The notes beneath the pieces were generated by a model. The model did no database searches. It worked only from the letters and a program-made list of their open reading frames with translations, and was not told the DNA's origin. This document shows, one piece after another, positions 34,501-61,491 of a stretch of 64,000 nt of DNA. Position 1 is the stretch's first letter; every line of letters begins with the position of its first letter. The DNA is from Rotaria sp. (lineage: Eukaryota): assembly GCA_905250055.1 (NCBI GenBank), contig CAJNOF010000002.1, forward strand, positions 5,986,240 to 6,050,239. The letters are read 5' to 3'. The position numbers and the translations under genes were made by a program.

Positions 34501-34751
34501 AACATCAATTATATCAAACCGTTCAAATGTGTTTCAGAAAGTACCTGTATCTATGTTTTTGCCGACTTGATTTTTTTTCTTAACGCTCGTTTTCTTACCT
34601 TTTTCTACTTTTTTCGACACTGTAGAACTATCATTTCTATTCATATGCAGTCATTGAGTGTATGCATCGGACGAAGATCGATAAAATTTTGGAAACAGAT
34701 GTAAATTGAATTTCTTTTTGTTCTATTTTAGTTTTAACATCCGACGATAGG

Positions 34752-39169: not shown

Positions 39170-40615
39170 CAGGGTTGCCAACTGTCCAGGTCTCGAATGG
39201 GATACATGTCGGGTACAACTTTTTTCCAAATGGGATACAAAATATTGTTGTTTAAAACAAAAGAAATTCTCATAAAAAAATCAGCGGACAACAGTATTTT
39301 TAGTCAAGAAGGTCATATTCCACGTGCTGTATGCAGGATACTATCTGAAATATTTAAGTTCAAGCAAAGAAGTTCTCAATCAGGGATGCACCAGTCATTA
39401 GCTTCCAGAAAAGTCAAATCTCAGAGGACCTTAGGGCATGAGACCTTCAGAAAGCAAAAACAGCAGGGAGATCGCTCAGCCAGCTGAACTCCGTTTTAAT
39501 TATTACGCAGTTCTGCATAGAAAACACCAAAATATCAATTTTATGTTGCTAAAATTCGATTTTCCTTAAAACCCTGGGAGATCGTACTTTTCCACAGTCC
39601 CATCGCGGGGTCTCACTAGCAGCAGTTGCGATCCAGCTCAATTCTAGTTTCGGGAATTTGTGAGATCGGAACTGATGCATGTCTTTTCTCAATTATAACT
39701 ATCTTCGTCACATTTCTATTCAAGAAAAAAAAAATGTTCATTTAAAACAAATGCTTGATATTCATTGTACAAATTCTTCCCGACTGGTATTTCTTTATGG
39801 TGTCAGTGGATGGATCATCATTGTTTCACTTTTTTCAGGTTCAAACTAGTGCCTTTTGTAGACAAGATCAGAATACAGTTTTTCATAATGTTTAATTTTT
39901 TTACAATAAGATCTGTAGAAAATCGAGCTACTACTCTGAGATCGTCTCTCGATTGAAATAAAAGCTTGGTTGAAGCGGGGCGATGAGATCCTGTATTTCT
40001 TCCTGTTACATTGATTATCAACCATCAACATGCTTCTCGTAAACCAAAGCAAGATGCACCTACTTCTACTTTGAAAACTAAAAAAAAGAAGTGTCTGGTT
40101 TAAAATATAGTAAGAGCACAAAGAACGGCTGCAGGTTCTAAAATGAATATGTGGCTACAAATGACGTTCACTGTAGGAATTCCTTGCTAGCTAAGTCAAA
40201 GTCAGAAAAAAGTAAATTACATGGACACGTTTTTAAATTATATGAAGTTGCTCCTGATATGAACCTCATCATTGTATGAATAGGGTTAGATGTATGGACT
40301 CATCCGGTGGGGTCAAGAGAAGCGCCTCATTAACGTTAGCAAACACAGGAGTAATACATCACTCAGTACCAACTGATTTCTGCAATTTTCGGTGGCTTTT
40401 CAGTGAATAACAATCACCCATACTCACCGAAAATCATAAAAACGACCAATTGGCTGTTAATCCACTGATCCGCGCTCTTTTTTTTTATTCTGATGAAAAG
40501 ATGATTTACATAGTACCAATGAAAAAGTGCAAATGGGATACAAAAACGCGTACCCCAGAGGTACACATTTTCGTGGGGTGCTGTACCTCAAAATGGAGTA
40601 CAGTTGGCAACCCTG
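39170..40615. mobile_element. Non-autonomous DNA transposon-like element (1446 bp) with perfect 16-bp TIRs CAGGGTTGCCAACTGT, plus a subterminal direct repeat AAATGGGATACAAAA at both ends
   Basis: 39170-39185 equals the reverse complement of 40600-40615. The interior has only short ORFs (39197-39487 and others) with no recognisable transposase. No clean target-site duplication is seen. Confidence 0.6.
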
Positions 40616-40617
40616 GT

Positions 40618-41659
40618 TCACACTTTTATACAGATTTTAGTACTAGTTGTTTTTAAGGATGAAAGACAAGATAAATTTCTCTGAATTTCGTCATTAATTT
40701 TATAAGTATAGGCAGCCTGTAATGGATTTTGATCCTCAAATTTATTTGCACAGCCTTCTTTATCTTGTGCACATCGTACAAATAAATCTAAAAACATGTA
40801 ATTAACATATTTATCATATTTAACAAGGTCAATAAAATCTGTTGGAACAACAGAATCAAGTATAACACCATCAATTTGTTTTTCATTTTCTATTAAATGA
40901 AGATATCGTTGTAAAAGATAAGTTTCTTGACTTGAACCCATTGACATGACACGTTGATTTGATTTTAAATGTTGACGATTAGAAACAACGTTTAATACAT
41001 ATTGTAGATCACGTCCCATATTTGTAAATGCATCATGTTTTAAACGATATTCATGCTCTTTTATATATGATAAACAAGATGAAAAGTTTAATAATATTGA
41101 TATTGGATATTCTAATAGATCACTTTTACCAACACCACGTTTATCCATCGCATATATTGTTATAGCACCATTATATTTAGATACAACACGAATAGCTTCT
41201 GATTTTAAAGTCGATATTGGTATACCACCATCTCCTATATAGTAGATAGACAAAGATATGTGACAAATTTAAACATAAGATATTACCTGCTATTCGCTAT
41301 AATTGATGACCTATATTTTCACTTCCATTTATGAAATATCGTTTGATAAAGATTTTTATTGTTTCTGTACAAGTTGTTAAATTTGTAGTTATAATCAAAT
41401 CAATAGGTACATTGACAAACATATATTGAGCATGAACATTATTGCTTGTTTCAATCTAAAGATATTTGAATGAAATCGAAATAGACCTTGGATTTATACG
41501 AGTCAAACATACTCCATTTGATAGAACAGGACAATTGAACCAATTTGGTTGAGCGATGGGAAAGTTAGAAAGTGGTAAACAATCTTCAGATGTAACAATA
41601 ATCGCAATAATCAGCAGTAGAAAAACTACTTTGCTCACAATAGTACAATGCATTGTCAA
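40618..41659 (-). CDS. Secreted protein of uncertain function with weak alpha/beta-hydrolase (S28/PRCP-like) resemblance; 2-exon model
   Basis: Exon 1, about 41659 down to about 41480, encodes the signal peptide MTMHCTIVSKVVFLLLIIAIIVTSEDC with donor GTATAA. Exon 2 runs from about 41228 down to 40618, with acceptor TATATAG. The segment IYAMDKRGVGKS ... RVMSMGSSQETY resembles the S28 HRYYGES ... GGSYGG region, but the GxSxG nucleophile motif is not intact. Confidence 0.4.
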
Positions 41660-42361
41660 TTTTTTTTGCGTACATTGAAAAAAGGCAAAATAAATAGTTA
41701 TTCAGTAAAAAAAAATTCTGTCATGTCATTTAAAAGGATTAGTACATTAAAGAAAGCAAATACGTAATATATGAAATTAATCTTAATACAAAAGGAATAA
41801 ATAGAAATGCTCTTTTATTTTGTTGATATCATATATTATTTTATTGACTCATGTGGGTGGTTTCTTATGCATAATCATGATTAGATAAACGTTTATAAAA
41901 GAAAACAGCATTTAACCAGCATCATAAGTACATTAGTATTGGTTCTTTAAATTTTTGTTTTTCAAAATAGAAGAAAAAAAACTTTTACTATCAAACATTC
42001 AATTAATAAATTGAAGAATAATGCAACAATTAGAGCTTTTCAAAAAATATTAGCAACGCTGATCTTTGAATACAGTGATAAAATAAGTTTGACTTTAGCA
42101 TTAATTTGAAATCATTTCTATCTCAAGCTATATTGATCATATATAAAATCATTTTTTCAAATCACTAGCTTAATTACTAATCGTTTAAAAAAATAGCTTC
42201 TCAGACTGTCAATCACATTTTACTTTCTTTTAATCTTCTATTCAACATTATGCTATTTCTGTGTTTATCAATCTATAATCGTTATCTAAATCTTTATTTT
42301 GACATTACTTGGCGTTTATTTTGTATTTACTATTATCATTTTCAACCAAAGATTTTTCAAT

Positions 42362-43441: not shown

Positions 43442-45479
43442 TTTGTTAAATAAACAATCGAACTTATTCGCTGGTTGTATAATTATAAATATTGAGTATT
43501 GAGTTCGGATAATCATCCTAGTAATAATACTGAGTTGGATTTTCGAAACATGCGCATGGAACGAGAGATAAGGACTTCGAAACAAAACGAGTTCTGTCAA
43601 GTTCATTACATTCATATCCTTCATACTTAATAAACGAATGAAAAAGTTCAGAATTTCTTATATCTGATGGTTCTATTTTGAGTATGAAAACATATTTTGA
43701 TCCAATGTCAAATGTTTGCAAAAGATGCTTTCCTTCGTCATTATTAATTTTCTTCTATTTTTATTTATCGATAAGCACAGCTTTGTCTTGCCATCAACAA
43801 TCAAAATCTGGCTGCCGTACTTATATTAGTTTCTCAACAGGTGAGAGTGTATCAAATATGTAAAACTCTTCTTATTCTACTTAGCATTATCGTTGAAAGC
43901 TATATAGACAATAATTTGAATTAAACATTATTAACCTTCTAATTAATTCTAGATTCTCAATTTAATCTACTTAATTTCGTTATTTGTTATGATTTTCCTT
44001 AGGATAACTTGAAACATGCGAAGGCACCAAAAGCTTCTGACTTTATGAGAATATGCGTGTACATCATCTTAACACATATAATCACTCACATCCTTTTACC
44101 TTGTCATTATATGCTTAATCATATGTTATTTTTCTCTTATAATGCAAACCATCAAGTAGGTCAAAAAAGAAGACCTTCAATTAAGTAAATATTTCTTAAT
44201 GTAGATCTAATGGATCGTCTCATTTTTATTATCATATTAGTTGCATCGATAATTTCACTATACAAACTTTTTTATATATTTATAATGAATTCATTTTAAT
44301 TAATCAGTTTTCTAGTTATCGTTTTATTGTCTTTTAAATTATTGAAGTTATTTATTTACAATACTTGATATACATTGATCAAATTAGTATGATTGGTTGG
44401 ATTGGTTTTTGACAAATAACTTACAGTTTTGTTTTGATGCTACAGTCATGATATGATATAGTAGTGAAATGAAATACTAAATAGATATTATTCATATTAA
44501 CAAAACTGTTTCATAAACTATAATCTTACATATTGTAAATATCGCTACGGTCAAATAATCGATAAAATACTAAAATTGCAGATTAAATACATAAATCAAT
44601 AATGGTATATACTATTGAGTTGCTTTCTTAACATACATATAACCGTTATCAAGTTGAATTTTCGTCATATTAGTTTGTTCTCAAGACATTAATTTTTTTA
44701 TGTCGTATTTCAAATAGTACTAGATTTTAGAAATAATTACAATTAACTTTAAGACACCTTAAAAACGCTTTTAAAAATTTTTGCTAAGTTCTTTACTGTT
44801 AATTTGCTTGACACCAAATAATACACTTTTAAAAATTTAAAACATTAAATAGTAACACAGAAATTTTTCCGATAAAATATATTACAACTTCAGATTCAAA
44901 ACTATTTTTCATCTATCTATAATTCATCATATACTTGTATCTGTTACTCTCTTGTATACAAAGAAAATAATAAAGAAAACGAAAATGTTACAATAAATTG
45001 AAGACCATATGTTAGTTCATGAACGTGATGTTCACGAAAACATGCTATATTAAATACAATAACGCTACCGTTGACAAAGAGGACGATAATTGATATGAAA
45101 TATCAGAACCAGTAGAGTGAGATTTAGTCAATGTAGGGTGTTGGAGTTCATACAGAGCACACACAGAAAACACTGTGAAATAATTGTAATCTTCATTTTT
45201 TCCTATGTAGATTGCTTTGACCAATATATACTTAAATAATAGTTAAACTGGTAACTATTATCAGTTTTTCATATGTGAATTATACTAATTCATAACTTTG
45301 TCAACATATTAATCAGAGTTATGAATTTAATTGAACTTCAGTTTCTCTTATATTCATGATTGTGCCAATAGGCATCTTATCTTATGTGAAGTCTTTTCTT
45401 TCTTAGTATATTGCTATACAATCAATGATACGTAATGTTCATAATCGTGTTACTGTTACGTTCATCTATGCATGATTGA

Positions 45480-45860
45480 ACCTTCTTCTCATTCTATATC
45501 GTTATTCACTCATATATTATATGTATTGTTCTCATCTATCTATTCTTACGTTATATCCTTACTCGATTGTTCGTCTATATCTGTTCTCTCCTTGGCCTCA
45601 TCACTTGTTCATTCTTACATTGTTCTCTTCATGGCCTCATCTTCTTTTTTTGCATCATCACTTATTCTACTCGTGTATATAAACGTGTGATTTAAATGTA
45701 AACGGGACGATTGTATGATATGAGGGAATAGAATACAGTGTATCACCATCAACACTAACATTCTTTATATCATTAATCGTCACATGACGATGATATGATA
45801 TGAAGGAATAAAATCACCAACCACACCAACATTTCTTCTATCATTTTTTTCGTCACAATG
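45480..45860. repeat. CT-rich dispersed repeat, copy 2, with an internal duplication of the GATATGA(A/G)GGAA...CGTCACA block (about 45700-45850)
   Basis: Aligns with 17440-17700. The ORFs at 45472-45690 and 45476-45682 are repeat translations. Confidence 0.5.
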
Positions 45861-46879
45861 ATAGTTTTCAATTTCCAACGATTTATCGAGATTCGTTCAA
45901 AGAATTATTATTCATATATATTGAACATTGAAATCTTTTCTAGTGTTTCAATCAATTAAGTTTACTTTACATGTCTTAGTACAATAGCTTTCTTATATTA
46001 ATTAGTTTTACGGGCCTTCTTCCAAATCAAGCTATAATCTTTTCTTCAAGAATTGCTACTCATATCTTAAATGTGTTTATTATTTCGATTGTAATATGTT
46101 TTGCAACATCAACTTTAAACGTCAATATTTTATTTAATCAGACTAGTTTAATTGCAAGATTAGTTGTAGGATAGTGATTATTTTATTCTTGTTCACATTA
46201 TTCAAATTACTTTTTAGAAGTATTCAATAATATAAATTTATTCAATTTTAATTTAGAATAATATGCTTTAGTATAACTAACCCTAAATATTCTTTGAGAA
46301 AAATTCAGTTTACGAAGTTAACATCACCTTCATATGGCCTGTTGAAATTTATAATTTTTCTTATTAATACGATTCATTCATTTTTGAGGCTATTCGTCAT
46401 ACTTCAAAAGAGTTTGATATTCAATTTTATTAACGAAAACCAACTAATCATAGATGATTAGTTTGAATGAAAAATTTCTATCGAAACATCGATGAAAATT
46501 ACTCACTGGTGCAAAATGAATTTACTGGTATTTCACAACATGCTGGTAAGGACAAATTTTACTCGTTCTCTTACATCGTGAAACTTTTAATATAAATCTT
46601 TTTACAGTGGATTGCAAACGTCTAATAGTTTCTCTCCTCGTGGATTATAAAAAATGTCATCATCAAATGATGCAGTTCCCAATAATATTGAAATTCTCAT
46701 GCAAAAAATCAATGCTAAAACAAATGCAGATAAACTTTCAAAATGTACAATCGATCTACGAGATGCACGAATAGATCCATGTGAAGATTCATCAGTTATA
46801 GCTGAATTATTTGTCATTACATTAAATTATAAAAACAAGAATGATGATGTGGCTGTGGATGTGGGTGTTGAGAGAAGAC

Positions 46880-47230
46880 TTACACCCACCATCATACCTA
46901 CAGCAGCAGGATCCTAGTCGTATCTTGTCGTTTCGTGAGACTGGAACCGAACTTCACAGACGAGTTTTGAACGGCCGGATGTGGGCTTCGAAACCAGTCC
47001 GTAAACGACAGTATACGGTTCGTATCCTGTCGCCGTCATAAATCACTGAAACCGCATTCCTGAACCGTACCGGAAACAGGCATCCGTATCCGAACATCGC
47101 TTCCGAACTCCAGAATTGACAGGAACTAAGCAGGAAACGGATGCAGGAACCGATTTCGGAATCCTGCTCTCGGAATTCGCTGGGACTCCACGAGATCCGA
47201 TGGTTTCCCACCGTACGTCTTTGACCTGGG
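46880..47230. other. GC-rich (about 50%) island of unknown nature in a roughly 30% GC background, with iterated GGAACCG / GAAACGG / CCGAAC motifs
   Basis: Base composition and motif iteration seen directly. There is no match to rRNA, snRNA, tRNA or known TE signatures that I can recognise. The ORFs at 46841-47041 and 46954-47211 have no recognisable domains. Confidence 0.3.
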
Positions 47231-48082
47231 CTACTTTATAGATTACTAAAGAATCAGTTCGGTCATTAAAACATGATCATAAACCAAACGATACATGAAA
47301 AGCATTAGGAAGTGCATAAATTGATAGCACAAGTCCATCTTATTCACAACCAAGTGATATTAACGTTCAATTGAAGCCCATCATTTCTCATAATTATGGA
47401 AACAATGATTGTCATACATGAAATGAATTCAATATTATTTTAGACATGCTTTTTTCTTCAACTTTATATTCAAATCCGAATATATTTATAATAAAAGTTC
47501 AAAGATTAAATAACAAATATTTTAGCATGCAATCCTTATATGAAATCTGTACAAATAATTAGCTTCGGACAGCCGGAATACAGAGAAGCATTCTTTCGTA
47601 TTGAGTAGTTCTGCTTTCGTTATTTTTCCTAATTTATTGTCCCATGGACGCTCATTCTTCCGATTTTCATCCATTCAGCGCATGAGTTTCTTTGAGTATG
47701 TACACAACTCATACAAGCATTCAAATATTTGTTAATGGAAAGTATGTCTGTGCATGTCAATATTGAGAAAAAAATGTTGCCTAGGGTAGTAATAATACAG
47801 TTTAAAAACTCGATGAAATTTATCAAGGCATACATGAAAGTCACTAAAAACAGTAAAACCAACTTCATCTAAATGATGACCATGAGTCTCACATTAGAAT
47901 TGTCTTTAAGAATTTGAAAATAAAGAAAAGATGAATTTAATCATTGCAAGAAAATGAACTCGAATTACGATCATTATGTCGAGATATAAAAAAGAAAAAG
48001 ATGAACTTTTTTCAAATATTATTTTTTGATCTGTATTAGAACTCTTTTATGAAACCCACAATAGAAGAAAACGATCATATCT

Positions 48083-48598
48083 AACATTGATAAATACTCT
48101 TCTTTCACTTAACTTAATATAATAATTTACTTAACAAAAACAGAAACATAAAGCTAGTGATGTTTCGTATCTCGATAAGATGCTTCGTCAGACATTAACA
48201 CAAACATAAAGCACATAACTTAGCATACAACAATTTATACAAGTGGAAACATAGCAAACTAAGAACAAACAAACTAGGCTATTTTCTTCTTTTTCTATCA
48301 TTCTTTGATAGTCATACGGAAAAACAAGACGGAAACAGTGCCAGCTACAGAGGGAGTTAATCTTTTTCCGTATCACTATCAAACAATGACTGAAAAAGAA
48401 GAAAATAGCCTAGTTTGCTTGTTCTTAATTTGTTCTATTTCCACTTGTATAAATTGGTGTATGTTAAGTCATTTGTTTTATATTTGTGTTAATGTCTGAC
48501 GAAGTATCGTATCGAGACATGAAACATCACTAGCTTTTTGTTTTTGTTGAATAAATTATTATATTAAACCAAGTGAAAGAAGAGTATTTATCAATGTT
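48083..48598. repeat. Long imperfect palindrome / hairpin (about 516 bp, arms about 250 bp at about 80% identity, centre about 48341) flanked by 15-bp direct repeats AGAAGAAAACGATCA (48063-48077 and 48629-48643)
   Basis: The mirror ORFs at 48188-48382 (-) and 48305-48499 (+) encode near-identical peptides, which is diagnostic of an inverted repeat. Direct comparison of the arms confirms it. Confidence 0.8.
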
Positions 48599-51500
48599 GA
48601 ATATCAAATCAACCTTTTTAACAAGATAAGAAGAAAACGATCAATTTAATCTCTTTCGCCATTCAGTCCGATTCATCAACAGTACGTAATCACATTTTTC
48701 TCAACATATCAAGCAAAATTATAATAAAAAATGACTTGAGATGTTTTACTTTGAAATCATATCTGCTGGATTTTCTGTGGCAGATTTTCAAAATAATTTT
48801 CGGTATGTGTACTTTTCGATATTCCTTGAACATAATCTCATATTCATGTCCTCACCCTTACAATATCTGTTTTTTTCTCACTTGATTTAATCAAATATTT
48901 TACAACATCAGACAAATCAGTTATTTATTCTGATTTTCATTGTTACAAAATTTGATAATAACAAATTTATGTTTATCTCTTCTGTAATTACATCGTTCTT
49001 ACTTGTCTTTTTCATCTGTATCTTATCAGCACATGTACAGAATGAGAAAAAGGACCATACTTATGACAAAGAAAGAAAAAAAATTTATGGTTGAATGATA
49101 ACGATTTATTTTTCTTTTGAATGCAATTTATATCGCTTTTCGTCACCCGCGCTTCAAGCAGGCTTATGCACATACAAAGGATACGACTATTATATTGAAG
49201 TAAAAGGATAGACAGTGTTGATACAAGCTTCGTTGTGTTATTTATCTCATAAAAAAAATCATTATGATATAAGCTGTACAACGACAAAATAAGTAATCGC
49301 GTATAAAACGATTTGGTAATGAAAGAATGTCCTTGTTAATGAGTGATCATAATACAAAAAAGAAAAGGTAAAAAACAGTCGTGTATTAAAAAGGACAGTA
49401 AGTATTATGCTTTACAATTTTTTTATTTCATATTTGAAATTGAGAAAATTTAAACGAAATATGTGTTACTACTCTAAGCATTTGATCATGATTACCCAGA
49501 TCCATCAAAACGGATTCGTTTATAGCACGTTTTCAAAATATAAACATTGAAAAAATGATATGTGCATGTTTATTCTTCTCGTAAGCGAATCGTATAATGA
49601 CTGGCGATAATCCTATGAGTTTAAAAATACTTTGATAAAGTAGTTAAAGTTAAAGTAGCATCCTTCAATGTTAACTTTCGCATAATCAAAGTTGAAATAA
49701 AGATTTTCTCACAACAAAAAAGTTTCTTTTGTGGAAACATAAAACTCAAAACTTCGAGAAATCGATATCAGATTCGGACTCCACCTTTCCCACAAACTGT
49801 ATTGAAAAAACGTTTTTTTTCCTAAAAAAATCTCTACTTTAACTTAAAGTCAAGTTAAAGTGGCAACTCTAATGCTCAGTGTATACGATGTATCACAGCC
49901 ATTTAAGTCTATTAGTGAAATATTTGTAAAGAGGGTGTGTTTGTGCAGTTTTTGTTGCTCAAAATATTCGAAGTATACAATAAAGTAGTCGTTCACAAAC
50001 TGGGCTTACTTTGATGATATAGTTACATGGATACAATTAATTTTTAGTTGTAAGACACTATTTAGTATCGTACACTTAAAAGGAAACAGATGTTTCAGAA
50101 AATCTTAAAAAAAGGTTTCTACAATGGAAACAAAGTCGAAATCCTCTTTCAACTTCTTCTTCCAATAAATGTTTCCTAACCAATTTCACAATGAAAGTTA
50201 CAGCAAAGGATGGGTGTGATATGTTATTCTAGTCATGACAATCAGTCATATTAACATGTTTCCATAATACAAAACGAACTTTGCAATCTGATATGCCAGT
50301 GCATTCCAACAAAAAAATATTGCTAGACTATAGGAAGCTTTCAACTAAAACAGTACACTAAATGCACATATATACATCAGTTCACTAACAAAAACTCTGT
50401 TTCTCTCAGGATGATGCACAGTTTTTACATATTCAGCGCAAAGATAGTTCATGCTGCACATCCACTTTCACTGCTGGCAGTATACCACTGGTCAAAAATT
50501 GTCGAAATATATGAGTAAATATATTGATCGATGTAGTCGATAATGTAAAATAATGTCCATTATTTACATTATCGGCTACAATGGGTTATCTAAATAAATT
50601 ATTATTTTTTTCTTTTATTTAGATCCGTATAAACATTAACTAGGTAGCAAAATGATGAAGCAAAGAAGAACCAAAAATTGCTAATCATATTAACGATTCA
50701 TAGTCTTATGAATCTTGCAATAAATGCAAATCCACATAAGCAACATATTGGGTTAGTGAGTTTTGTTAATGAAAAGATTTCTTATTTTTTATACTTGTAC
50801 ATCGTAAGTTGTTCTTCAGTAAAACCTAACCTTGATTGAAATTTTTCTCAGAAACAGTCATATTCCTCTGAAAAATAACTTATGACATATACACATAAAA
50901 AATAAGATATTTTATTAATAAAACTCACTAAATCAATATGCTGCCCATGAGAATTTACATTTATTCTTAAATTCAAAAGACTATGGATCAGTAGGTTCGT
51001 ATCTTGATCCTACCGGTAATTGCATGGAACACTTGCGATATAATCGATAGTTTCCACATCGTTCGGGAAGTGGTTTCGTAAACAAAATTATGAAGTCTAA
51101 ATGCAGTAAAGAAGTATACAAACGTGACAGTAAAATGAAAGATAGATAGATATATGTATTAAGGACTTACATTTGTTGAGTTTCTGATTGGTAAATAGCT
51201 CTCTCTATGAGATATGACAGCTAAAAAAACAACAGCTCTGTGTGAAATCTGGAAGAATTATTTACAACATGTTTATGACTAGGAAACTTTCAGTAATATT
51301 TCTTGCAATTGTTCGATACTCTAAAGTTATGGCAACATTCCAAGACCTTCACAAGTTTTCTTAGAAACATTTTTTTCTTACAGTGTTTAGAATAATATAC
51401 GGTCATTTTTAAAATGAACGCTTCAATCTGGGATAAATTTTGGGGGAATAGATTCAGGAAATAAAAGTACGACTAGGTTTAGGGAAATCGAAGTATATAC

Positions 51501-53447
51501 AAGGAAATAGGCATAGATGTAGTAGTATACGTATAAAGAGAAGGATTGATATATATGCTTAGTGAGATTACATTAAGAAACTTGAAAAAAAGAAGATTTC
51601 GATTTCGTTACAAAATTCAGAACCTTTTGAAGTTCCGTGTGAAATTTTTTCCTTATGCACTCTTTTGATAATCAGTTTTAAGGTTAATTGAAATCGTTTA
51701 GGAAATTTATATGCCTTCACTAGATGCTTTATGAAAATGCAACGCATAGAAGCCTCTTCCATACAGTTTTTAGAAAGAGTATATGAAAAGGTTTGTGAAA
51801 GGGCTTACGAAAATTTCATAAATGGTAAAAAAAAGAGGGGCTTTTGCACGTTGTGATTTAATGAACTCTTTAGAATTTTATTATTGTACAGTGTTGTTAC
51901 AGTGAGAAGAGAAGTGTCTGTTAGTGTGCTAGAAATGTATATGGACGGTATGTGAGGCTGGATGAGGATCTAGAGTTGTAATGACACAGAAGAACAACTT
52001 CACTAATTCAGACTCAGAATTTCATCCATACTTCCAGTAAAACGATGCTTTATAAATCATCATACTTTACTGATATACATAGAGCTAATTTTCAGGATTT
52101 AATTAATGCAGAACTTAACAGCAACAAAACATCGATTTTTGAAACTAAGAACAATCATTTTTCTAATAAGTTTAGCACAAAGAGTTGCAATTACGTAGTT
52201 TACTTGAAGGAGACGCGTTTAAACATTCATAGTGACTATTTACAAAAATCTGGTCTTAATGCATTAATGCAGCATCTTTCACGAAATTTTATTTATTTCT
52301 CTTTATTCGCTTAGATGAGTACTAAAATTATATGAATTAAATGTTTCATATGTACATGCATTGTAGCATCCTAAGAAACTGCTCGGTGTACCTTCTTGTT
52401 TGAACGATGCTTCCGCTAGTATACTGACAGATGCTGCGATCCATTTATAAATGATTCTTACTTAAAAATAGTTGAAATGTTTTTGGTGAAGGCAAAAATA
52501 TGACTTGGAATTGCTATTTTTTTTGTGCAATCTATTTGAAAGAAGTTTCAAATAAGCTTCTGCTATTATCAAAAGATCCAGTCTATTCAATCGAATCAAA
52601 GCTAAGATATTTCAACTTTTGATTGTAGCGGCTATTGCCTGATACACTCCTCAGAATAAAAATATTTTCTTATCGGCCTTTCAAGTTATTGAATGGCATG
52701 AGGAATGTATTTAGTATTTTATATTATAAAAGCTAGTCTTGTCCAAATTTAAGTTTTGAAAAAAGAATATGCTACCTATTCATGTTTTCTGAGATTTTTA
52801 CTAAGAGAACCTGGTGAAATATATCTCAATATTAGTGTAAATAGATATGCTTTACATGAAGAAGGATGACGAGGTATAAATTATCAGAATATTAATGCAT
52901 TTGAATAGATCCTGATACTTATGTTCTTACAAACAGTGGTAGGATTTTACTTCGGTCTCGTTTTAGAATGCATTCAGCAGTTAAAAGATCAATGTTGTTT
53001 AGTATCTTTTCTTACTTTCAGGAGTGAGTTAAGCAAGACTCATGGGGTAAGAAAGTGTTTGCATTTCTAAGAAATATACCTGCAATACAAAAGCTGATAG
53101 CATTATCCCTATGAGATTCAAATGTGAAACGTGATGTAACATTTGTTACTAATCACGCGAGTGTTATGTTATTTGGTTTATCTTGGCACTGATTTTTTCC
53201 AACATCTTTTACTTAATTCTTGAGAACTACAATAGAAAAGAAGTTTGTCTATTCTCATAATATGTTAGTGATATATTATCGACGGTAGGATATGGAAAGC
53301 GTCTGATACGGCCTGTGATAGTCGTTGAGAGGAGAAAGAGAAAATCTTTAAATTTCTATCCCTATACACTTCAGCATTTCTTTTAGATCGTGTTTCACAA
53401 AAAATAAACAAAGCACCTGAAATAGACTTCGACTCATCTTTTTCATA

Positions 53448-54458
53448 TTGAAAATGCGGTACGATCTAAAATTCTTCATTACGGTTACTGTTGGAAGCCT
53501 ATTACTGATGATTTGGTGGCGGTTTTTTCTTGACTTACGACAGCCGTCGCCGAATTCTAAGTCCCTCGATAAGACACCTGGATTGTCAAAAGATTTGTCT
53601 ACTCTATCTAATGCAGCTGGCAAATCTTTACCAAAACCACGTCTGATCTTCAACACGTCTGCTCGTTATATTAATAACAGTTTAGAATGTTGGACTGATG
53701 ACGACTATTTGCACTGGAAACAAGGTGATTTTTATCCACCTGGTCAGTCAAATGGTTCAATTGCCTTTATGATCTTGACTGGTGATAGTAACTTACGTAC
53801 TCGCTGTGATGTCATTATGTGCACATTCGGCGTCACTATTCATCCATCACGACTCTTTTTCGTGGGTGAATCATCATCGGATAGACGAGTACCAATTTAT
53901 GATGTGGTTGCACCCGACACACCGAGACCAGTTAACATTTGGTGGAGCAAGCAAAAAGTCACTCGAGGTTTAGATGTTGTTATTAACATGATTAATAAAA
54001 TGGCTGACGGCACAGATATCAAGTGGCTTATGGTAATGGATGATGATACGTTTGTTTCTCCACCGAATTTAAGATTAGTTTTATCGGATTATGATCCTCA
54101 ACAACCGCTAATGATCGGAAACGCATGTGAAGATCGATTTTGTGGTGGTGGAGGCTATGTTTTTTCAAGAGCCTTATTCGAAAAATTCCCTCCATTCATT
54201 TTGTCGTGTTACCCAAACAAACCAGGTGGATATAGTGATATGGTTGTGCCTCGATGTATCACCGCTAAAACTGGAGTTCGACCGACCGATCGAAGAGAGT
54301 TCAATACTCAACCACCAGACCACTATACTACACGAGATGTATTAGCCGCTCGACCAAATGGATTCGGGAGAGCTGCTACTTTTCATTATCTGAGATTGCC
54401 AAAAAACTACCTAGACTTGTGGAGACTTCATCAAGCGTTTTACCGGGATGGAACATAA
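53448..54458 (+). CDS. Fringe-like / glycosyltransferase family 31 protein, type II membrane topology (336 aa), single exon
   Basis: The N-terminal TM segment is FFITVTVGSLLLMIWW. The DxD-type motif WLMVMDDDTFVSPPNL is followed by the GGGGYVFSRALF block typical of Fringe/C1GALT1/B3GLCT-like GT31 enzymes. The ORF is complete with a stop. Confidence 0.65.
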   Translation: MKMRYDLKFFITVTVGSLLLMIWWRFFLDLRQPSPNSKSLDKTPGLSKDLSTLSNAAGKSLPKPRLIFNTSARYINNSLECWTDDDYLHWKQGDFYPPGQSNGSIAFMILTGDSNLRTRCDVIMCTFGVTIHPSRLFFVGESSSDRRVPIYDVVAPDTPRPVNIWWSKQKVTRGLDVVINMINKMADGTDIKWLMVMDDDTFVSPPNLRLVLSDYDPQQPLMIGNACEDRFCGGGGYVFSRALFEKFPPFILSCYPNKPGGYSDMVVPRCITAKTGVRPTDRREFNTQPPDHYTTRDVLAARPNGFGRAATFHYLRLPKNYLDLWRLHQAFYRDGT

Positions 54459-56502
54459 TCAAAACTACTGGTTCTTACCTCTCTGCTCCTGTTTCCATTT
54501 GTTGCAGTGTTTCGTTTATCAAATAACTGAATCATATGCAAAAAAAACTTGGATGTGGATGAGAGTGACAAAATACCATGACATGTTTTTCACTATCGCT
54601 AAAGATTCTCATCATATCGAAAATAATTATACATGTTCATTGTCCAAAAAATTACAAGAATCCTAATCTATTCTTTTGTGTATCGAATGCTAAAACTATC
54701 TAGAATGAATTATATAATTGTGAGTTAGTGAACAGGTATTGAACTGTATGTCGAAGTCAGCTTCTCCTAACACTAATGTGTACTTTTGAGAATCAATCAT
54801 GTTGCATCAACTGCATATTATCCTCTATTCCAAATGTAAATGGTCTAGCAAAGTTAGTTTTTAGGATCTGAAAGAAAATAAAGTATGGATGATTGAGAAT
54901 GAAAGATGAAGAATGAAATAAAGTATTTTATTGGATGAAATGTACGTTTTACAAGCTGATCATCAGTAGTCATTAATTTATATCAATGTTAATGCTAAGC
55001 CAGTACCTCATACACAAAGGTGATATGTGGATTGCAAATTTATTTTCGAGATTCCAGAAATCAAAGCAATTTTTTTCCTTGTTCACGAACACCATAACAA
55101 TAGTAATCATTCTGATTGAGAACGACAGATATTCAACTCTGCCAAGATTAATCATAGTTTGTCAAAAAGTAAATTTAGATAAAAAGGACTCATGACAACA
55201 AACTGCTTTAATGATTCAGTTAGATGATGGATCGAATGATTTCTAGTGTAACCAGTAGATTACATGATTGACCACACTGAAATGAATGGAGAGATAAATG
55301 ATTGGTCACTTATTCTGACTGATTTAAACAATCAGTAAATTTTTATATGAATGAATATCGTTAGACTCATCAATATTCGATAACCTGATTGACAGCAAGA
55401 TGAACATGTCAATAAGAGTTTTATTAAAAATAGTTTGATTGTCACAAGAGCCATTTACATCAAATAAAATTTGGCATTCATTTTTGTTCAATAGTGTTGT
55501 TCATTATTACTTGGAAGCATATATTAATGAACAAGTGTTTAAATTATTGTTTCTCTTTGTTGCTCATCGTTGAGACAAGTGTCGCGATTAATTTTATCTA
55601 ATGTCATGCAACATCAAACAATGAATCTATAATGACATCTCATAGTATATTTTATCCTACTTTCAAGATACTTTGGTTGTTCAACATGTTCTTTATTCCA
55701 TCAATAATCATAAATCAACATGGTATTGCTTTGTTCTGATACAAACCATCACCATTCGTCGCATAGAATTATCTTCTTATTCAAAGAGAAGCAACTGCTC
55801 TGGAGTAAATTTATTGCATCGTTTTGAAAAGTCGAACGACTTGGTTGAAATCTACTAAATTATGAGGAGATACTTGTTTCTTTGGGGGAAGACTTTCATC
55901 AATTAGTTTTTTGCTCTATTATATCTATACGTCGTTCGAATAACATTTTTTTGCTATGTGTGTTTGAAAGAAGAATTTTAAAAAGAAAATCGAGATCATG
56001 CAATATTTCAGCTTGCTTGTGAGTATGATCATCGTTAATTCATAATTTGAAGGCACGTAAACATTCATGGAGAAATATTATTAAATTTTATACGTTCAGA
56101 CTCTGCATGTACAGATCATTTCAGAGAACAACATATTGACAGAAATGATGAGACTTTCGACATTTAAAAGATTCCTCTATCGATAACAAAGTTGGACAAT
56201 CTAGGAAAGTATTAACAAGATATGGGATATAGGTGTGGATGATAATGAAGAGATGAACCAAGCCATCATGCATGTGTACACTAGTACCTGTCAACACCTC
56301 ATACATCTACATATTCGCTCTTACCTCGAATCACCTTGGTACCAGTGACACACGATGGAGTCTCTACTGAGTTGATTTCTGGTAGCGAACGCGAATAAAA
56401 TAGTCATGAGATTTGTCTTTCATTCAATCGTGATGTATTCGAGAATGAAAGAGATCAAGAAAAACAAACTAAATGTCTTTTTTGAGTCGATTCAATTGAA
56501 AA

Positions 56503-57185: not shown

Positions 57186-58908
57186 TTGGCCCTATAATGA
57201 CGCATGTTACACCAATAATACATCAGTGAACTATGGAGATTCAATGGAATTTGTATTGACCGACTTTCATATTATTGTACTGTTACCGTTATATCTCTAA
57301 TTTTTCTGCAAGAGAAAGAACCTTTTCAGCAAAGAAGGAGTACTTTTTTTTATAAAGGTTGTTGAGAATACTCAAGTAAGATTGGGTAAACATTGCATTG
57401 CAATACATGACAGATTAATTAGAAAGACCATAAAGTTTAAGACAGAAATAATTCTTTATAATAAAATGTTTTGTTTGATAGTTTTCATCAAGAATTCTTC
57501 TGCTATAGGTTGAATGATTCATTGTAATCAGCTAAATGTAACTCAACTGAATCATAGATTATAACTCATCTTTTTAGAAAATAAACATAAAATCATGAGT
57601 GATAAACCGTCAGTGGTGTTCCAAAGGAGTGTGATTGAAAAGCTGATCATGAATGTCAAACTTTCAACGAAGTAACTTAACACGTTTCGGTTTTGTAAAA
57701 AAAAATTGTCTACATATGGAACTCAATATGCAAAACTTAAAATTTTTTCTTTATGAACACGACGAACAATTTCAAAAAGTGCATGTGACACAAACTATCA
57801 CCCCCAGTAGAGACACTTATATTGTCAGTTAAGGAAATGAAACACGTTGGGTGCAGAGTGAAGGTCTCCCTACCAAACTTATAAATTTAAAACATTAGCT
57901 ACTGTTGCTGTGTGCCGACCATGATATTATAGTTTTACAATGTTAGCAGTATATATAGCATGATTAAAGCTCAAAGTTTCAGCAGATTCTTTAATTTTAT
58001 TTTTTTGATGAAAGGAAAGAGATGATGAGATGCTTTAGATAAATACGTATGTTTCATATTTAAAAAAGAGATTGTAAAAAATATCAAGGGAAAAATTTAT
58101 GTTAGCAGCAATGCCAAATATAAGGAAAATAGATCCGAAATTCTCACCTTGATATATTTTTCAAACTTTTTTCAAAAATATGGAGTCAATCTTTTAATGA
58201 TTCTACTCGAAAAGTTCTATTTAACCATTAAGAGAACAGAACAAGAGATCTTACTGAAATTTTTAGTTTTGAGCATCTTGCAAACACTAGAGACAGCTGA
58301 AAACTTGAACATCTTGATCGGTACACACTGACACGGTCTAGAATTTTAAACAGGCTAATTTAACGATAAGAACTTTGAATTTGATTCAAATGTGTTTAAC
58401 GACTCTATTTGTCAAATCATCCACAAAAGGTGATAAATACGAAAAGCAAATGATGGACAACTTGCTGGCAGAAATTATATTATCTAGGATAATACCACTT
58501 TACATAGAAGTAGATTTTTGACAAAAGGAATAGCTAAAAGTCAGCTGAACCTTCTTTTTATTCTTACGACCCTAATGCCAAATCTTTCTGCCATGGTTGA
58601 GATCTGTATCAAGCTTCACAAGTTTAAAGAAATAACTCTTTGCTTCAAATGAGGACCGTAAAATGTACCACACTATTATCAATAGCCAAACTACTTATCT
58701 TTCATTTAGTAAACGGTAGTCCAAATAGTATTAATCTAATAATGAGATCTTGTTTAGACGCCGAAAATTTGGACTTTAGATTCCAATTCACTACGGGCCA
58801 CTAAGTCTAGTTTGTTATAGTCTTGCCGGATGTATGTTTAATGTTATTAGAGTTCTGCGAAATGAAGAGTAAAAGAGGCATCGATTGACATCTATTCTTT
58901 TATATATA

Positions 58909-60161
58909 TCGGGTTGGTGCAAAAGTCTCCGCCGATTTTTTTCTTTTCAATGTTTCATGATTTTATTGAAACAAAATGTCACTAATCGAAAACATATATA
59001 CCATTATTGTCTATGACATACTCCCATCTTTTAGGCAAATCGAGAATGCCATCTTCAAAGAATTTCTTTGATAAAGACGAAAAGAAACTCTCGAGGTCCG
59101 ATTTTAGATGTAGTCGATCATCAAAATGCTTTTTCACCAGGTGATTGCGGAGCGACCGGAACAGATGATAATCAGAAGGTGCCAGATCTGGTGAATATGG
59201 TGGATGAGGTAAGACCTCCCTCCCTAATTCTTCCAGCTTCTGGCGAGAAACTTTTGAGATATGAGGTTTTGCATCATCGTGAAGCAATCGAACTTTTCGT
59301 CTTTCTGGACGATTTCCTTGTAGTGCAATTTTCAAATTCTCAAGTTGTTTGCAGTAAAGCTTCGAGTCGACCGTGGTATTAGGTAGTAGAAGTTCCCAGT
59401 AGATAATACCTTCGAAATCCCACCAGATCGGCAGCATAATTTTTTTCGAATGCAGGTCGTTTTTTGGTTCAGGTTCAGGCAAATCTTCAGGATTGACCCA
59501 TTGACGCTTGCGTGTATGGTTGACATACAGGATCCACTTTTCATTACCAGTGACAATCTGCTGAAGAAACTTGTGTCGGTTGCGTTTTGACAACAAAGAA
59601 TTGCATATGGTGATTCTTTGCTGTATATTGTCCGAGCTTAGTTGATGTGGAACCCATGTTTCAAGTTTACTAACTTTTCCGATTTCATGTAAATGCCGAT
59701 CGATGGTGAAGTGATCGCATAGAAGCATAGCTGATAATTCACTGGTAGTTAATCGTGGATTGTCTTCGATCAGGACTTTTAATTGTTCAATATCAATTTC
59801 CAGAGGACGTCCACACCTTGGCCGATCTTCCAATGACATATCACCTTCCCGAAATCTTTTAAACGAATCTCGACAAGTGCGATCAGCAACAACACGTTCA
59901 CCAAGTGCAGCACATATATTGTGCACAGCAGCACTTGCATTGTTCCCCAGTTGGAACTCATACAAAATGCAATGTCGAATATGAATAGAAATCTCTGACA
60001 TATTTTAATATGGAATGTAAAAAAAATCGGACATTCGTTAATGTCACATTATAGTACTACACAGGCGGTATCAAATGTGCAAAAACCACGCCTGTATAGT
60101 AGCGCTAGATGGCTTTAAAAGACTTTCAAAAAAATCGGCGGATACTTTTGCACCAACCCGA
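58909..60161 (-). mobile_element. Mariner-family (cecropia/Hsmar1-like) DNA transposon, 1253 bp, with 34-bp TIRs and TA target-site duplication; apparently intact
   Basis: The left TIR is 58909-58942, TCGGGTTGGTGCAAAAGTCTCCGCCGATTTTTTT. The right TIR is 60128-60161, its reverse complement with one mismatch. TA sits at 58907-58908 and 60162-60163. The TIR resembles Hsmar1 TTAGGTTGGTGCAAAAGTAATTGCGG. Confidence 0.9.
58982..60001 (-). CDS. Mariner transposase, full-length 339 aa, DD34D-type (HDDAKPH third-Asp motif, WVPHQL, YSPDLAPSDYHLF)
   Basis: Uninterrupted ORF colinear with Mos1/Hsmar1 transposases, including the HTH N-terminus, WVPH..L, GDEKWI, HDxAxPH and PYSPDLAPSDYHLF. Confidence 0.9.
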   Translation of the reverse strand: MSEISIHIRHCILYEFQLGNNASAAVHNICAALGERVVADRTCRDSFKRFREGDMSLEDRPRCGRPLEIDIEQLKVLIEDNPRLTTSELSAMLLCDHFTIDRHLHEIGKVSKLETWVPHQLSSDNIQQRITICNSLLSKRNRHKFLQQIVTGNEKWILYVNHTRKRQWVNPEDLPEPEPKNDLHSKKIMLPIWWDFEGIIYWELLLPNTTVDSKLYCKQLENLKIALQGNRPERRKVRLLHDDAKPHISKVSRQKLEELGREVLPHPPYSPDLAPSDYHLFRSLRNHLVKKHFDDRLHLKSDLESFFSSLSKKFFEDGILDLPKRWEYVIDNNGIYVFD

Positions 60162-60522
60162 TATATTAACAAAACCTCAAAAGTTTTATATTTCATGAAA
60201 AAAAGAGCTCAAAGAAATATTTTTGGAGTACTAAATCGATGAAATGTCCATCTTCATCAACTTGTATATTGTCTCATGCAGATTATAATTAGGTTTGGTT
60301 TTAGAAATAATTAGTAAAAAATTTAGACTTACTCGGAATTGCTGCATATACTCTGGTTCAGAAATACTCTCAATAGAATATGGACTTTGCAGAATTTCCA
60401 TCGCAGTTTTCATCTTAATGACGTAGTCATACTCAAGATTTAATCTCAGTATCAAGAAATATTTATGACTCTGGATGAAAGTGAGCATTAGTAAAACGAA
60501 ATTATCATTGCTAGACTTATGA

Positions 60523-61491
60523 TGCGGCCAACTATCCGACTGGTTTGAAGTCAAAAGCGGTGTTCGCCAAGGGTGCACAATTGCCCCGGATCTGTTTCTA
60601 GCACCAATGGACTGGCTGCTCCAACGAACCGTACACCGAGGGTTGCTCGGCGCTACACTGGGTAACGAAGTATTCACTGATTTGGACTTTGCGGATGATG
60701 TAGCACTTCTAGCCGAGACTGTGGAAGCAATTCTGCTGGCATTGGAGGTCATGCAGCACGAAGCTCGCCCGCTTGGCTTAGAAATCAACTGGCCAAAGAC
60801 AAAAATTCAAGAAACCAGAAGCGAAACGACTAACAACAACGCACTATCTGTGGGCAGCCACAATGTGGAAGTGGTCGACTCATTCGTCTACTTAGGTTGC
60901 ACGATTAACAAAACAGGCAGCAGCATACCAGAAATCACCAGAAGGATTGCAATCGCTCGAAACTGCATGAAGACCCTGGACAAATCCATCTGGCGCTCAA
61001 GCATAGCGTTACAGACCAAAATTCGTCTTTACAACTGCTATATATTACCAGTTCTTCTGTACGGCGCGGAGACCTGGACAATAACTGGCTCGGTCGAGAA
61101 AAAATTAGATGCTTTCGACAACTGGTGCCTTAGACGAATTCTCCACATACCATATACGAAACACATCACGAACAAAGAAGTTCGTGAACGCACCGGCCAA
61201 CCTGAAATTAGCACAACTATCAAAACTAGACGACTACGACAATTCGGACATATAGCCAGGGGCAACCCCCTCTCCGACCATACCAGAGCATTGCAAGCAA
61301 ATATTAATGGGCCACTAAGTGGATGGAAACGCCCTCGTGGCAGACCACGCCACACGTGGATCCGCTCCGTCGAAGACGACCTACGTCCATTCAATCTAGG
61401 TCTTTTCTCCGCCTGGAAAAATGCTCAAGACAGGCAAAAATGGCGTAGTCTTGTAACGAAAGCAACGTCCAGTAGGATACGCTACAGATGA
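60523..61491 (+). CDS. 5'-truncated non-LTR retrotransposon (RTE-like LINE) reverse transcriptase, C-terminal RT domains
   Basis: The frame opens after a TGA at 60520. The RT motifs are FEVKSGVRQGCTIAPDLFL, FADDVALL (the YADD box), LEINWPKTKI and YLGCTIN. GC content is much higher than the host. The antisense ORFs at 60231-60788 and 61038-61394 are spurious. Confidence 0.8.
   Translation, partial: CGQLSDWFEVKSGVRQGCTIAPDLFLAPMDWLLQRTVHRGLLGATLGNEVFTDLDFADDVALLAETVEAILLALEVMQHEARPLGLEINWPKTKIQETRSETTNNNALSVGSHNVEVVDSFVYLGCTINKTGSSIPEITRRIAIARNCMKTLDKSIWRSSIALQTKIRLYNCYILPVLLYGAETWTITGSVEKKLDAFDNWCLRRILHIPYTKHITNKEVRERTGQPEISTTIKTRRLRQFGHIARGNPLSDHTRALQANINGPLSGWKRPRGRPRHTWIRSVEDDLRPFNLGLFSAWKNAQDRQKWRSLVTKATSSRIRYR

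What the first reader, a model, noticed from the sequence alone, without database searches (positions are those of the whole stretch)
48063..48643. Solitary long hairpin of about 516 bp flanked by 15-bp direct repeats in a gene-poor stretch
The two arms are about 250 bp at about 80% identity with a short loop. They are flanked, though asymmetrically, by the direct repeat AGAAGAAAACGATCA. This is the structure expected for an endogenous hairpin-RNA (hpRNA/siRNA) locus or a foldback MITE inserted with a long TSD. The mirror-image ORFs here are artefacts of the palindrome, not genes.
Basis: seen in the sequence. Interest (0 to 1): 0.6.

Follow-up and report, generated by a model that had tools for sequence, protein, structure and literature searches.

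The report
Old palindromic insertion in rotifer spacer
A real 528-bp imperfect palindrome, bracketed by an exact 15-bp duplication, sits between two genes of the bdelloid rotifer Rotaria sp. 'Silwood-1'; it looks like an old, single-copy foldback-type insertion that is decaying at the neutral rate, is one of many such palindromes in this genome, and shows no sign of being a working hairpin-RNA gene.

Summary
The arms are 48077-48324 and 48363-48604 (216/242 aligned positions match, 89%) and the loop is 38 nt. The exact repeat AGAAGAAAACGATCA touches the left arm and lies 24 nt beyond the right arm. Folding is extreme (-294 and -307 kcal/mol, z about -35).

The window is Rotaria sp. 'Silwood-1', a bdelloid rotifer. 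The hairpin sits in the middle of a 10-kb gap with no called gene. It is present in both haplotypes and in two further individuals.

Nothing suggests function:
- All 13 allelic substitutions in the arms leave one haplotype unpaired, and none is compensated.
- The arms diverge at about the regional rate.
- G:U wobble does not favour either strand.
- No RNA family, protein relative or second copy was found.

It is not solitary. The window holds seven self-palindromes, and about 150 kb of Rotaria DNA holds 18. Only this one has a significant flanking repeat.

Best reading: a 551-bp foldback insertion with a 15-bp target duplication, now a neutral relic. That duplication is longer than any I know for a cut-and-paste superfamily, so the integration route is unresolved. 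Genomic copy number, an empty site, transcription and small RNAs could not be tested. Interest is low to moderate.

The parts
48063..48077 (.). Left copy of the exact 15-bp direct repeat AGAAGAAAACGATCA (putative target-site duplication). Its last base is also the first base of the left arm.
   Evidence: identical in both haplotypes
48078..48628 (.). The 551-bp segment between the two repeat copies, the putative insert. Its extreme ends form a 5-bp inverted repeat, TATCT...AGATA.
   Evidence: and the sequence
48077..48324 (.). Left arm of the palindrome (248 nt).
   Evidence: 216/242 aligned positions complementary to the right arm
48325..48362 (.). Unpaired central loop (38 nt, richer in G+C than the arms).
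48363..48604 (.). Right arm of the palindrome (242 nt).
48605..48628 (.). 24-nt stretch, CAAATCAACCTTTTTAACAAGATA, between the right arm and the right repeat copy. It has no partner on the left side and is the source of the asymmetry.
48629..48643 (.). Right copy of the exact 15-bp direct repeat.
48305..48499 (+). 64-aa ORF that mirrors the one on the other strand. It is an artefact of the palindrome, not a gene.
   Evidence: no protein relative among 5.8 billion; no gene called here in any assembly
48188..48382 (-). Mirror-image 64-aa ORF on the opposite strand. Also an artefact.

Best explanation
The feature is a relic of a single insertion. A 551-bp non-coding foldback (palindromic) DNA segment, 48078-48628, entered a staggered break in intergenic DNA of the Rotaria sp. 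'Silwood-1' lineage. Fill-in of the stagger duplicated 15 bp of target, AGAAGAAAACGATCA.

The insertion happened before the two present haplotypes diverged and probably after the split from R. sordida. Since then the segment has drifted neutrally: the arms have fallen to 89% complementarity and nothing maintains the pairing.

Shown:
- the palindrome
- the exact bracketing repeat
- presence in both haplotypes and several individuals
- neutral-looking decay
- absence of any second copy or gene homology in the material held

Inferred:
- that the repeat is a target duplication
- that the segment arrived already as an imperfect palindrome, that is, as a copy of a low-copy foldback or MITE-like element
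- that it has no present function

The integration enzyme is unknown. A 15-bp duplication is longer than those of the cut-and-paste superfamilies I know and lies in the range made by target-primed retroelements or by repair-mediated capture.
For: Structure:
- The palindrome and its fold are real and far beyond chance.
- The 15-bp repeat is exact and sits at 0 and 24 nt from the arm ends. It is one of only two repeats of 15 nt or more at 300-900 bp spacing in 64 kb.
- The ends of the segment next to the repeat copies are themselves inverted: TATCT...AGATA.

Distribution:
- It is present with the same boundaries in haplotype A (window, L001, L016) and haplotype B (L002, L013, L014).

Evolution:
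- Arm-to-arm divergence is 10.7%. Allelic divergence in the arms is 13/490 = 2.7%, and the regional level is about 1-5%. The structure is therefore older than the haplotype split and evolves at about the local rate.
- All 13 allelic differences in the arms break a pair in one haplotype. None is compensated.
- Mismatches are 19 transitions to 7 transversions, with G:U counts of 7 (+ strand) and 12 (- strand).
- If the arms had been identical at insertion, two 15-bp target copies would stay identical only about 18% of the time ((1-0.107)^15, my arithmetic). This mildly favours arrival as an already imperfect palindrome.

Class-level support for insertion:
- Two R. sordida palindromes have flanks that align to this window. 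Neither has an arm copy at the orthologous Silwood-1 interval.

Copy number:
- Short-read contigs run straight through the hairpin (L014). It is therefore not a young high-copy repeat.
Against: - No second copy was found in the 64-kb window, in about 90 kb of other Rotaria loci, or in two metagenome scans. The family character of a transposable element is therefore unproven.
- A dispersed palindromic family was detectable in the same small sample (L007 5631-5830).
- A 15-bp duplication fits no cut-and-paste superfamily I know (own knowledge).
- The palindrome does not reach the right repeat copy; 24 nt lie between them.
- No empty site could be recovered. The apparent deletions in L012 and L013 are scaffold gaps. 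Synteny with R. sordida ends at 46849.
- None of the other 17 palindromes has a comparable flanking repeat.
Confidence: 0.5

Rival explanations
1. De novo snap-back product. The palindrome was made at this site in one event, with perfect arms at birth. One route is target-primed reverse transcription of a roughly 310-nt RNA whose cDNA folded back and copied itself. That would give rc(arm)-loop-arm-tail between variable-length target duplications. The other route is fold-back synthesis while a staggered double-strand break was repaired.
For: - The layout is exactly what a snap-back cDNA predicts: left arm = reverse complement of right arm, a unique loop, and an unpaired 24-nt tail only on the side where priming would start.
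- 15 bp is typical of target-primed retroelements (own knowledge).
- The repeat begins with a purine/A-rich run (AGAAGAAAA), so the opposite strand ends ...TTTTCTTCT at the presumed nick, like LINE endonuclease targets (inference).
- It is single-copy in everything searched.
- Reverse-transcriptase elements are present in the window and in related loci.
Against: - There is no poly(A) or simple-repeat tail before the right repeat copy.
- A perfect 15-bp repeat beside arms that differ by 10.7% has only about 18% probability if both date from the same event.
- The 5-bp terminal inverted repeat TATCT/AGATA is not predicted.
- No source copy of the arm was found.
Confidence: 0.22
2. Functional hairpin-RNA (endo-siRNA) locus. 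Whatever its origin, the region is transcribed. The 250-bp stem is diced into siRNAs that silence a target gene or transposon through the expanded Dicer/Argonaute/RdRP machinery of bdelloids.
For: - Either strand would fold into a near-continuous 240-bp stem, with perfect runs of 28, 26 and 22 bp.
- Bdelloids have expanded RNAi gene families (PMC7943196, read).
- The locus lies in an unusually long gene-free gap.
Against: - There is no conservation signal. All 13 allelic changes break pairs, none is compensatory, and the arms diverge at the regional rate.
- There is no strand preference in wobble pairs: 7 versus 12 among 19 transition mismatches.
- There is no homology to any gene in the held loci or in the protein collection.
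- Rfam gives only sub-threshold, strand-symmetric miRNA-like hits (40 bits against a gathering score of 96).
- Six other palindromes in the same window look no different.
Confidence: 0.1
3. Local inverted duplication with a coincidental repeat. One arm is ancestral sequence and the other was copied from it by a replication template switch. The 15-bp repeat is unrelated to the event.
For: - Unique palindromes are very common in Rotaria spacers: 18 in about 150 kb. The other 17 lack flanking repeats.
- The first bases of one R. sordida palindrome arm seem to continue the homology with the Silwood-1 flank.
Against: - A chance 15-mer exactly bracketing the palindrome is improbable, about 1e-3 or less empirically.
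- Two R. sordida palindromes have no arm copy at the orthologous Silwood-1 interval.
Confidence: 0.1

Closest known systems
Foldback / palindromic MITE-type non-autonomous DNA transposons (Drosophila FB elements, palindromic Cele-type repeats of C. elegans, Stowaway/Tourist-like MITEs)
   Same: - It is short, non-coding and A+T-rich.
- Almost the whole element is one long imperfect inverted repeat.
- It is bracketed by a direct duplication of target sequence.
- It lies in intergenic DNA.
   Different: - The duplication is 15 bp. Known superfamilies give 2-11 bp (own knowledge).
- No other copy was found.
- The arms have none of the tandem sub-repeats typical of FB.
- The right arm stops 24 nt short of the duplication.
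Drosophila hpRNA loci (hp-CG4068, hp-CG18854, and others) that yield endo-siRNAs
   Same: A long inverted repeat with a short loop that would fold into hundreds of base pairs of dsRNA.
   Different: - Known hpRNAs are homologous to their target genes and are defined by small-RNA reads.
- No target homology was found here and no small-RNA data exist.
- The pairing decays at the neutral rate.
Inverted structures made during target-primed reverse transcription (L1 twin priming; inverted terminal repeats of Penelope-like elements)
   Same: - The flanking duplication is of variable-length type and falls in the 7-20 bp range.
- Sequence lies in inverted orientation between the duplications.
- There is an asymmetric unpaired 3' tail.
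   Different: - Twin priming inverts but does not duplicate.
- No reverse-transcriptase remnant, hammerhead ribozyme or poly(A) tail is present.
Fold-back inverted duplications and templated insertions from double-strand-break repair or replication template switching
   Same: - The palindrome is unique and single-copy.
- It occurs in a genome where such palindromes are frequent and unrelated to each other.
   Different: - Those processes are not expected to give a clean 15-bp direct duplication of the flank.
- Templated insertions are usually far shorter (own knowledge).

Membership tests
MITE / foldback DNA transposon | Terminal inverted repeats | tested here: met
   Arms of 248 and 242 nt are 89% complementary. 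The extreme ends of the insert are TATCT...AGATA.
MITE / foldback DNA transposon | Target-site duplication of a length typical of a superfamily (2-11 bp) | tested here: not met
   The flanking repeat is 15 bp and cannot be shortened or extended. The 2-11 bp range is from my own knowledge.
MITE / foldback DNA transposon | Many related copies in the genome | tested here: inconclusive
   No second copy was found in the 64-kb window, in about 90 kb of other Rotaria loci, or in metagenome scans. The whole genome could not be searched. A different palindromic family was detectable in the same sample.
MITE / foldback DNA transposon | Small size and no coding capacity | tested here: met
   The insert is 551 bp. 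It holds only mirror ORFs, which have no relatives.
MITE / foldback DNA transposon | Filled versus empty site polymorphism | tested here: inconclusive
   The hairpin is present in every haplotype that covers the site. Apparent absences are scaffold gaps. No orthologous site exists in the R. sordida loci.
FB-type foldback element | Arms built of tandem sub-repeats | tested here: not met
   TRF finds only an 11-bp repeat of 1.9 copies in the arms.
hpRNA / endo-siRNA locus | A long inverted repeat able to form an extended dsRNA stem | tested here: met
   MFE is -294 and -307 kcal/mol, z about -35.
hpRNA / endo-siRNA locus | Transcription, and 21-23-nt small RNAs from both arms | not testable with these tools
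hpRNA / endo-siRNA locus | Sequence homology of the arms to a target gene | tested here: inconclusive
   No match was found in the window, in the held loci or in the protein collection. The genome as a whole was not searched.
hpRNA / endo-siRNA locus | Selection that maintains the pairing (compensatory changes, reduced divergence) | tested here: not met
   All 13 allelic changes in the arms break a pair and none is compensatory. Arm divergence of 2.7% is about the regional level.
miRNA precursor families (Rfam MIR6426, mir-2001) | Score at or above the family gathering threshold | tested here: not met
   Scores are 40.4 and 38.7 bits against a threshold of 96, on both strands alike. There are no hits at gathering level.
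Target-primed retroposed insert (LINE/SINE/Penelope-type) | Variable-length target duplication of roughly 7-20 bp | tested here: met
   An exact 15-bp duplication. The range is from my own knowledge.
Target-primed retroposed insert (LINE/SINE/Penelope-type) | A 3' poly(A) or simple-repeat tail, or a recognisable RT, SINE-promoter or ribozyme module | tested here: not met
   The 3' end reads ...CCTTTTTAACAAGATA. There is no tRNA, Rfam or hammerhead hit.

The most novel reading that the evidence does not exclude
The hairpin and the many other mutually unrelated long palindromes in Rotaria spacers are not transposon families. They would be products of snap-back synthesis, made during break repair or target-primed reverse transcription in bdelloids. 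Those that are transcribed, possibly including this one, would feed the expanded Dicer/Argonaute/RdRP machinery as endogenous hairpin RNAs.
Probability: 0.1. Interest if true: 0.6.

Novelty: new member of a known kind. Interest (0 to 1): 0.25.

Why it matters
For this locus, little: the best reading is a decaying, functionless insertion in a spacer.

Two points could interest specialists:
- The bracketing duplication is 15 bp, which matches no cut-and-paste transposon superfamily I know. If other copies exist with the same duplication length, that would point to an undescribed integration route in bdelloids.
- Long, imperfect, mutually unrelated palindromes occur about once per 8 kb in the Rotaria DNA examined here. 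Two R. sordida palindromes sit at intervals where the two species carry unrelated sequence. A genome-wide census could show whether they are low-copy foldback elements or scars of break repair in animals known for surviving DNA breakage.

Tried and rejected
**Empty site among individuals.** L012/L015 (RSIL806) seemed to lack window 46710-51178, and L013/L014 seemed to break at 48727. These are scaffold joins or contig ends: a single N at L012:14507, an N-run at L013:16360-16417, and contig ends in L014 and L015. Rejected as evidence of absence.

**Empty site in R. sordida.** Three loci were fetched (L005, L019, L020). Synteny stops at window 46849, inside a ubiquitin-domain gene, so no orthologous site exists there. 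The homoeologous Silwood-1 region (L006-L011) aligns only up to 43533. The last look-up (P0079) gave contigs that reach only about 2.4 kb upstream of the Fringe-like gene.

**Copy number.**
- Window and loci BLAST found none.
- Two exact-pattern scans of metagenome contigs gave nothing and one chance 37-nt match, L018.
- A protein search with the 73-aa open frame of the hairpin found no candidate.
- An attempt to sample more of the genome through the window's mariner transposase failed, because that product is not on record.

**Arm asymmetry as selection.** The right arm has 3 allelic differences and the left 10-11. This follows a regional gradient of heterozygosity that falls to zero right of about 49.8 kb. 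Rejected as arm-specific constraint.

**Extension of the direct repeat.** Motifs like AAGAAAAGATGAA occur at 47918 and 47988. No other match to the 15-mer exists with up to 2 mismatches. The alignment beyond the 15-mer is weak, and TRF finds no array. Rejected.

**Relation to the mariner in the window.** The terminal sequences are not similar.

**Literature.** No paper in the library describes hairpin-RNA loci or these palindromes in bdelloids.
Full report
**1. What is there**

The sequence at 48063-48643 contains a long imperfect palindrome.
- The repeat finder reports two collinear inverted blocks, 48139-48324/48363-48548 and 48077-48146/48535-48604, each 89% complementary.
- A global alignment of the left half with the reverse complement of the right half gives arms 48077-48324 and 48363-48604. 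216 of 242 aligned positions are identical, there is one 6-nt indel block, and the loop is 38 nt.
- As RNA the + strand folds to -294 kcal/mol and the - strand to -307. Shuffles average -98 and -110, so z = -36 and -33. As DNA the MFE is -185 kcal/mol.
- Perfect duplex runs are 28, 26, 22, 19, 17 and 16 bp, then shorter.

The direct repeat AGAAGAAAACGATCA is exact at 48063-48077 and 48629-48643.
- The left copy overlaps the first base of the left arm. The right copy lies 24 nt beyond the right arm.
- No other match to this 15-mer exists in the window, even with two mismatches.
- Only two exact direct repeats of 15 nt or more at 300-900 bp spacing occur in the whole window. The other is the low-complexity CAAAATAATAATAAA.
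- About 1 in 1000 random placements in this window gives 13 nt or more.

The segment between the repeat copies (48078-48628, 551 bp) begins TATCT and ends AGATA.

The two 64-aa ORFs, 48188-48382 (-) and 48305-48499 (+), are mirror translations of the same palindrome.

**2. Where the window comes from and what surrounds the hairpin**

ORFs in the window encode several animal-type products: major vault protein repeats, a RING/TRAF protein, a Fringe-like glycosyltransferase, a mariner transposase and a reverse-transcriptase fragment.

The Fringe-like ORF is 100% identical to a protein of Rotaria sp. 'Silwood-1'. Its contig, GCA_905250075.1 CAJNOP010000018.1, matches the window base for base.

According to PMC7943196, this species has a 10x haploid assembly, a 10x diploid assembly and four single-individual assemblies. 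L001 and L002 are two contigs of GCA_905250075.1 that differ by about 1% here. I take them to be the two haplotypes of the diploid assembly. This is my inference: the accession itself was not in the text I read.

Called genes end at 43441 (an LRR protein) and resume at about 53508 (the Fringe-like gene). The hairpin therefore lies in the middle of a 10-kb gap with no called gene. No tRNA and no Rfam family at gathering level is present in the window. With permissive thresholds the tip of the hairpin gives sub-threshold miRNA-like hits on both strands alike: 40 and 39 bits against a gathering score of 96. That only restates that it is a hairpin.

**3. Related loci**

The hairpin, with the same boundaries and identical 15-bp repeats, is present in:
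- both 10x haplotypes (L001 = window, and L002)
- RSIL801 (L013, and L014 which carries the same allele and which I take to be from the same individual)
- RSIL802 (L016)

Two alleles exist: A (window, L016) and B (L002, L013, L014).

Apparent deletions or breaks in L012/L015 and L013/L014 coincide with N characters or contig ends. They are assembly joins, not empty sites.

In R. sordida (L005, L019, L020) collinearity with the window ends at 46849, inside the first exon of a ubiquitin-domain gene. The orthologous site of the hairpin is therefore not in these loci. The homoeologous Silwood-1 region aligns only through the LRR gene.

**4. Does anything maintain the structure?**

Between alleles A and B the arms differ at 13 paired positions.
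- In every case one allele forms a Watson-Crick pair and the other does not: 8 are broken in A and 5 in B. No pair changed on both sides.
- Watson-Crick pairs number 216/242 in A and 219/242 in B. The ancestor of the two alleles therefore had about 224/242.
- Allelic divergence in the arms is 13/490 = 2.7%. Windows between 43.5 and 49 kb range from 0 to 5.2%, and heterozygosity falls to zero right of about 49.8 kb.
- This gradient, not arm-specific constraint, explains why the right arm has fewer differences than the left.
- The 26 arm-arm mismatches are 19 transitions and 7 transversions. They would be G:U pairs in 7 cases on the + strand and 12 on the - strand. That is no significant strand preference.

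The structure thus behaves as neutral DNA. With 10.7% arm-arm divergence against about 2.7% allelic divergence, it is several times older than the haplotype split. Intergenic identity to R. sordida is 75-80%. If the arms were once identical, the palindrome is therefore younger than the species split.

**5. Copy number and relatives**

No part of the arms matches anything else in the window or in the other loci held. Two exact-word scans of the metagenome collection gave nothing and one chance 37-nt match. The open frame through the hairpin has no protein relative. Short-read contigs run through the hairpin without breaking (L014), so it is not a young high-copy repeat. The full genome could not be searched with these tools, so a low or moderate copy number remains possible.

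**6. It is not solitary**

Self-comparison of the window finds six more self-palindromes: 10937-11294, 11858-12062, 12426-12578, 14063-14690, 50532-50580 and 50695-50989. Across the roughly 150 kb of non-redundant Rotaria DNA held I counted 18.
- Arms range from about 23 to 317 nt, loops from 1 to 71 nt, and identity from 76% to 97%.
- They are unrelated to each other.
- Only one, L007 5631-5830, belongs to a dispersed family with copies in both species. All of the long ones are single-copy in the sample.
- None but the present one has a flanking direct repeat longer than 9 nt.
- Two R. sordida palindromes have flanks that align to this window. The corresponding Silwood-1 interval holds unrelated sequence and no copy of an arm. 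At class level this argues for insertion rather than duplication of ancestral local sequence.
- From memory, inverted repeats at about one per 5 kb were reported for C. elegans, so this density is not unprecedented for an invertebrate.

**7. Interpretation**

The simplest account of the anatomy is an insertion: a single target copy of AGAAGAAAACGATCA was duplicated when a 551-bp palindromic segment entered a 15-nt staggered break.

If the arms had been perfect at that moment, the chance that both 15-bp copies are still identical is about 18%. This mildly favours a segment that was already an imperfect palindrome, that is, a copy of a foldback or MITE-like element. It argues less for a palindrome created in the act of insertion. 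The terminal TATCT/AGATA points the same way.

Three things argue against a classical MITE:
- the length of the duplication
- the 24 unpaired nucleotides at the right end
- the lack of any second copy

A snap-back cDNA made during target-primed reverse transcription would explain the 15-bp duplication, its A-rich start and the one-sided tail. It leaves the missing poly(A) tail and the perfect duplication unexplained.

A functional hairpin-RNA locus is not excluded. It has no support beyond the fold itself, and the evolutionary pattern is neutral. I put the relic-of-a-foldback-insertion reading at about 0.5, the snap-back origin at about 0.2, and a functional hpRNA and a coincidental repeat beside a local inverted duplication at about 0.1 each.

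**8. Verdict**

In kind it is a new member of a known class, a foldback-type palindromic insertion in spacer DNA. Interest is low to moderate. The unusual 15-bp duplication and the high density of unique palindromes in Rotaria spacers are the only points that merit a genome-wide follow-up.

Noticed in passing
window 10937-15640: A dense cluster of repeats: self-palindromes at 10937-11294, 11858-12062, 12426-12578 and 14063-14690, an inverted pair at 12089-12327/14706-14945, and an 81-bp tandem array at 13575-13963. It may be one complex foldback-like element.
   Followed up: partly
window 50532-50580 and 50695-50989: Two further hairpins lie 2 kb to the right of the target, in the same gene-free gap. 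One is 49 bp at 96%. The other is 295 bp with arms of about 125 nt at 82%. Neither has a flanking repeat.
   Followed up: partly
window 58904-60166: An apparently intact mariner element: 39-bp terminal inverted repeats at 97% (TATCGGGTTGGTGCAAAAGT...), flanking TA, and an uninterrupted 339-aa transposase ORF at 58982-60001 on the - strand. The exact protein is not on record as a called gene.
   Followed up: partly
window 60607-61491: A 294-aa ORF with a weak reverse-transcriptase (RVT_1) match next to the mariner. It is probably a retroelement fragment.
   Followed up: no
window 46850-47230: A block of about 370 bp that looks much richer in G+C than its surroundings (by eye, not measured). It begins exactly where collinearity with R. 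sordida ends, inside exon 1 of a ubiquitin-domain gene that is complete in R. sordida. It has no other copy in the held loci, and its origin is unknown.
   Followed up: partly
window 27822-42120 versus L019 8565-9670: A 14.3-kb Silwood-1 segment carrying the major vault protein gene is represented in R. sordida by about 1.1 kb. Most of that 1.1 kb is a 628-bp palindrome (L019 8895-9522), so a palindrome sits at a large indel or synteny break.
   Followed up: partly
L020 2538-3242 versus L019 455-2237: A 705-bp R. sordida palindrome carries, in the other haplotype, a 1069-bp insertion in its loop. The insertion has GAACCGAAC-rich terminal direct repeats. It is a polymorphic insertion of an unidentified element.
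   Followed up: partly
L007 5631-5830, 9211-9320, 11814-11910; L006 4680-4829; L005 720-796, 5455-5608: A short palindromic repeat family with several dispersed copies in both R. sp. 'Silwood-1' and R. sordida. It is a bona fide MITE-like family, unrelated to the target hairpin.
   Followed up: partly
window 43508-55500 (L001 versus L002): The two 10x haplotypes differ by 0-5.2% per 250-bp window (mostly 1-4%) up to about 49 kb and are identical from about 49.8 kb onward. This is either a loss-of-heterozygosity (gene-conversion) boundary or a collapsed part of the assembly.
   Followed up: no
L003 2545-3549, 10001-11005, 12208-12897: The RSIL806 scaffold shows three tandem Fringe-like genes where the window has one. 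Some joins are single-N scaffold gaps, so this may be partly an assembly effect.
   Followed up: no
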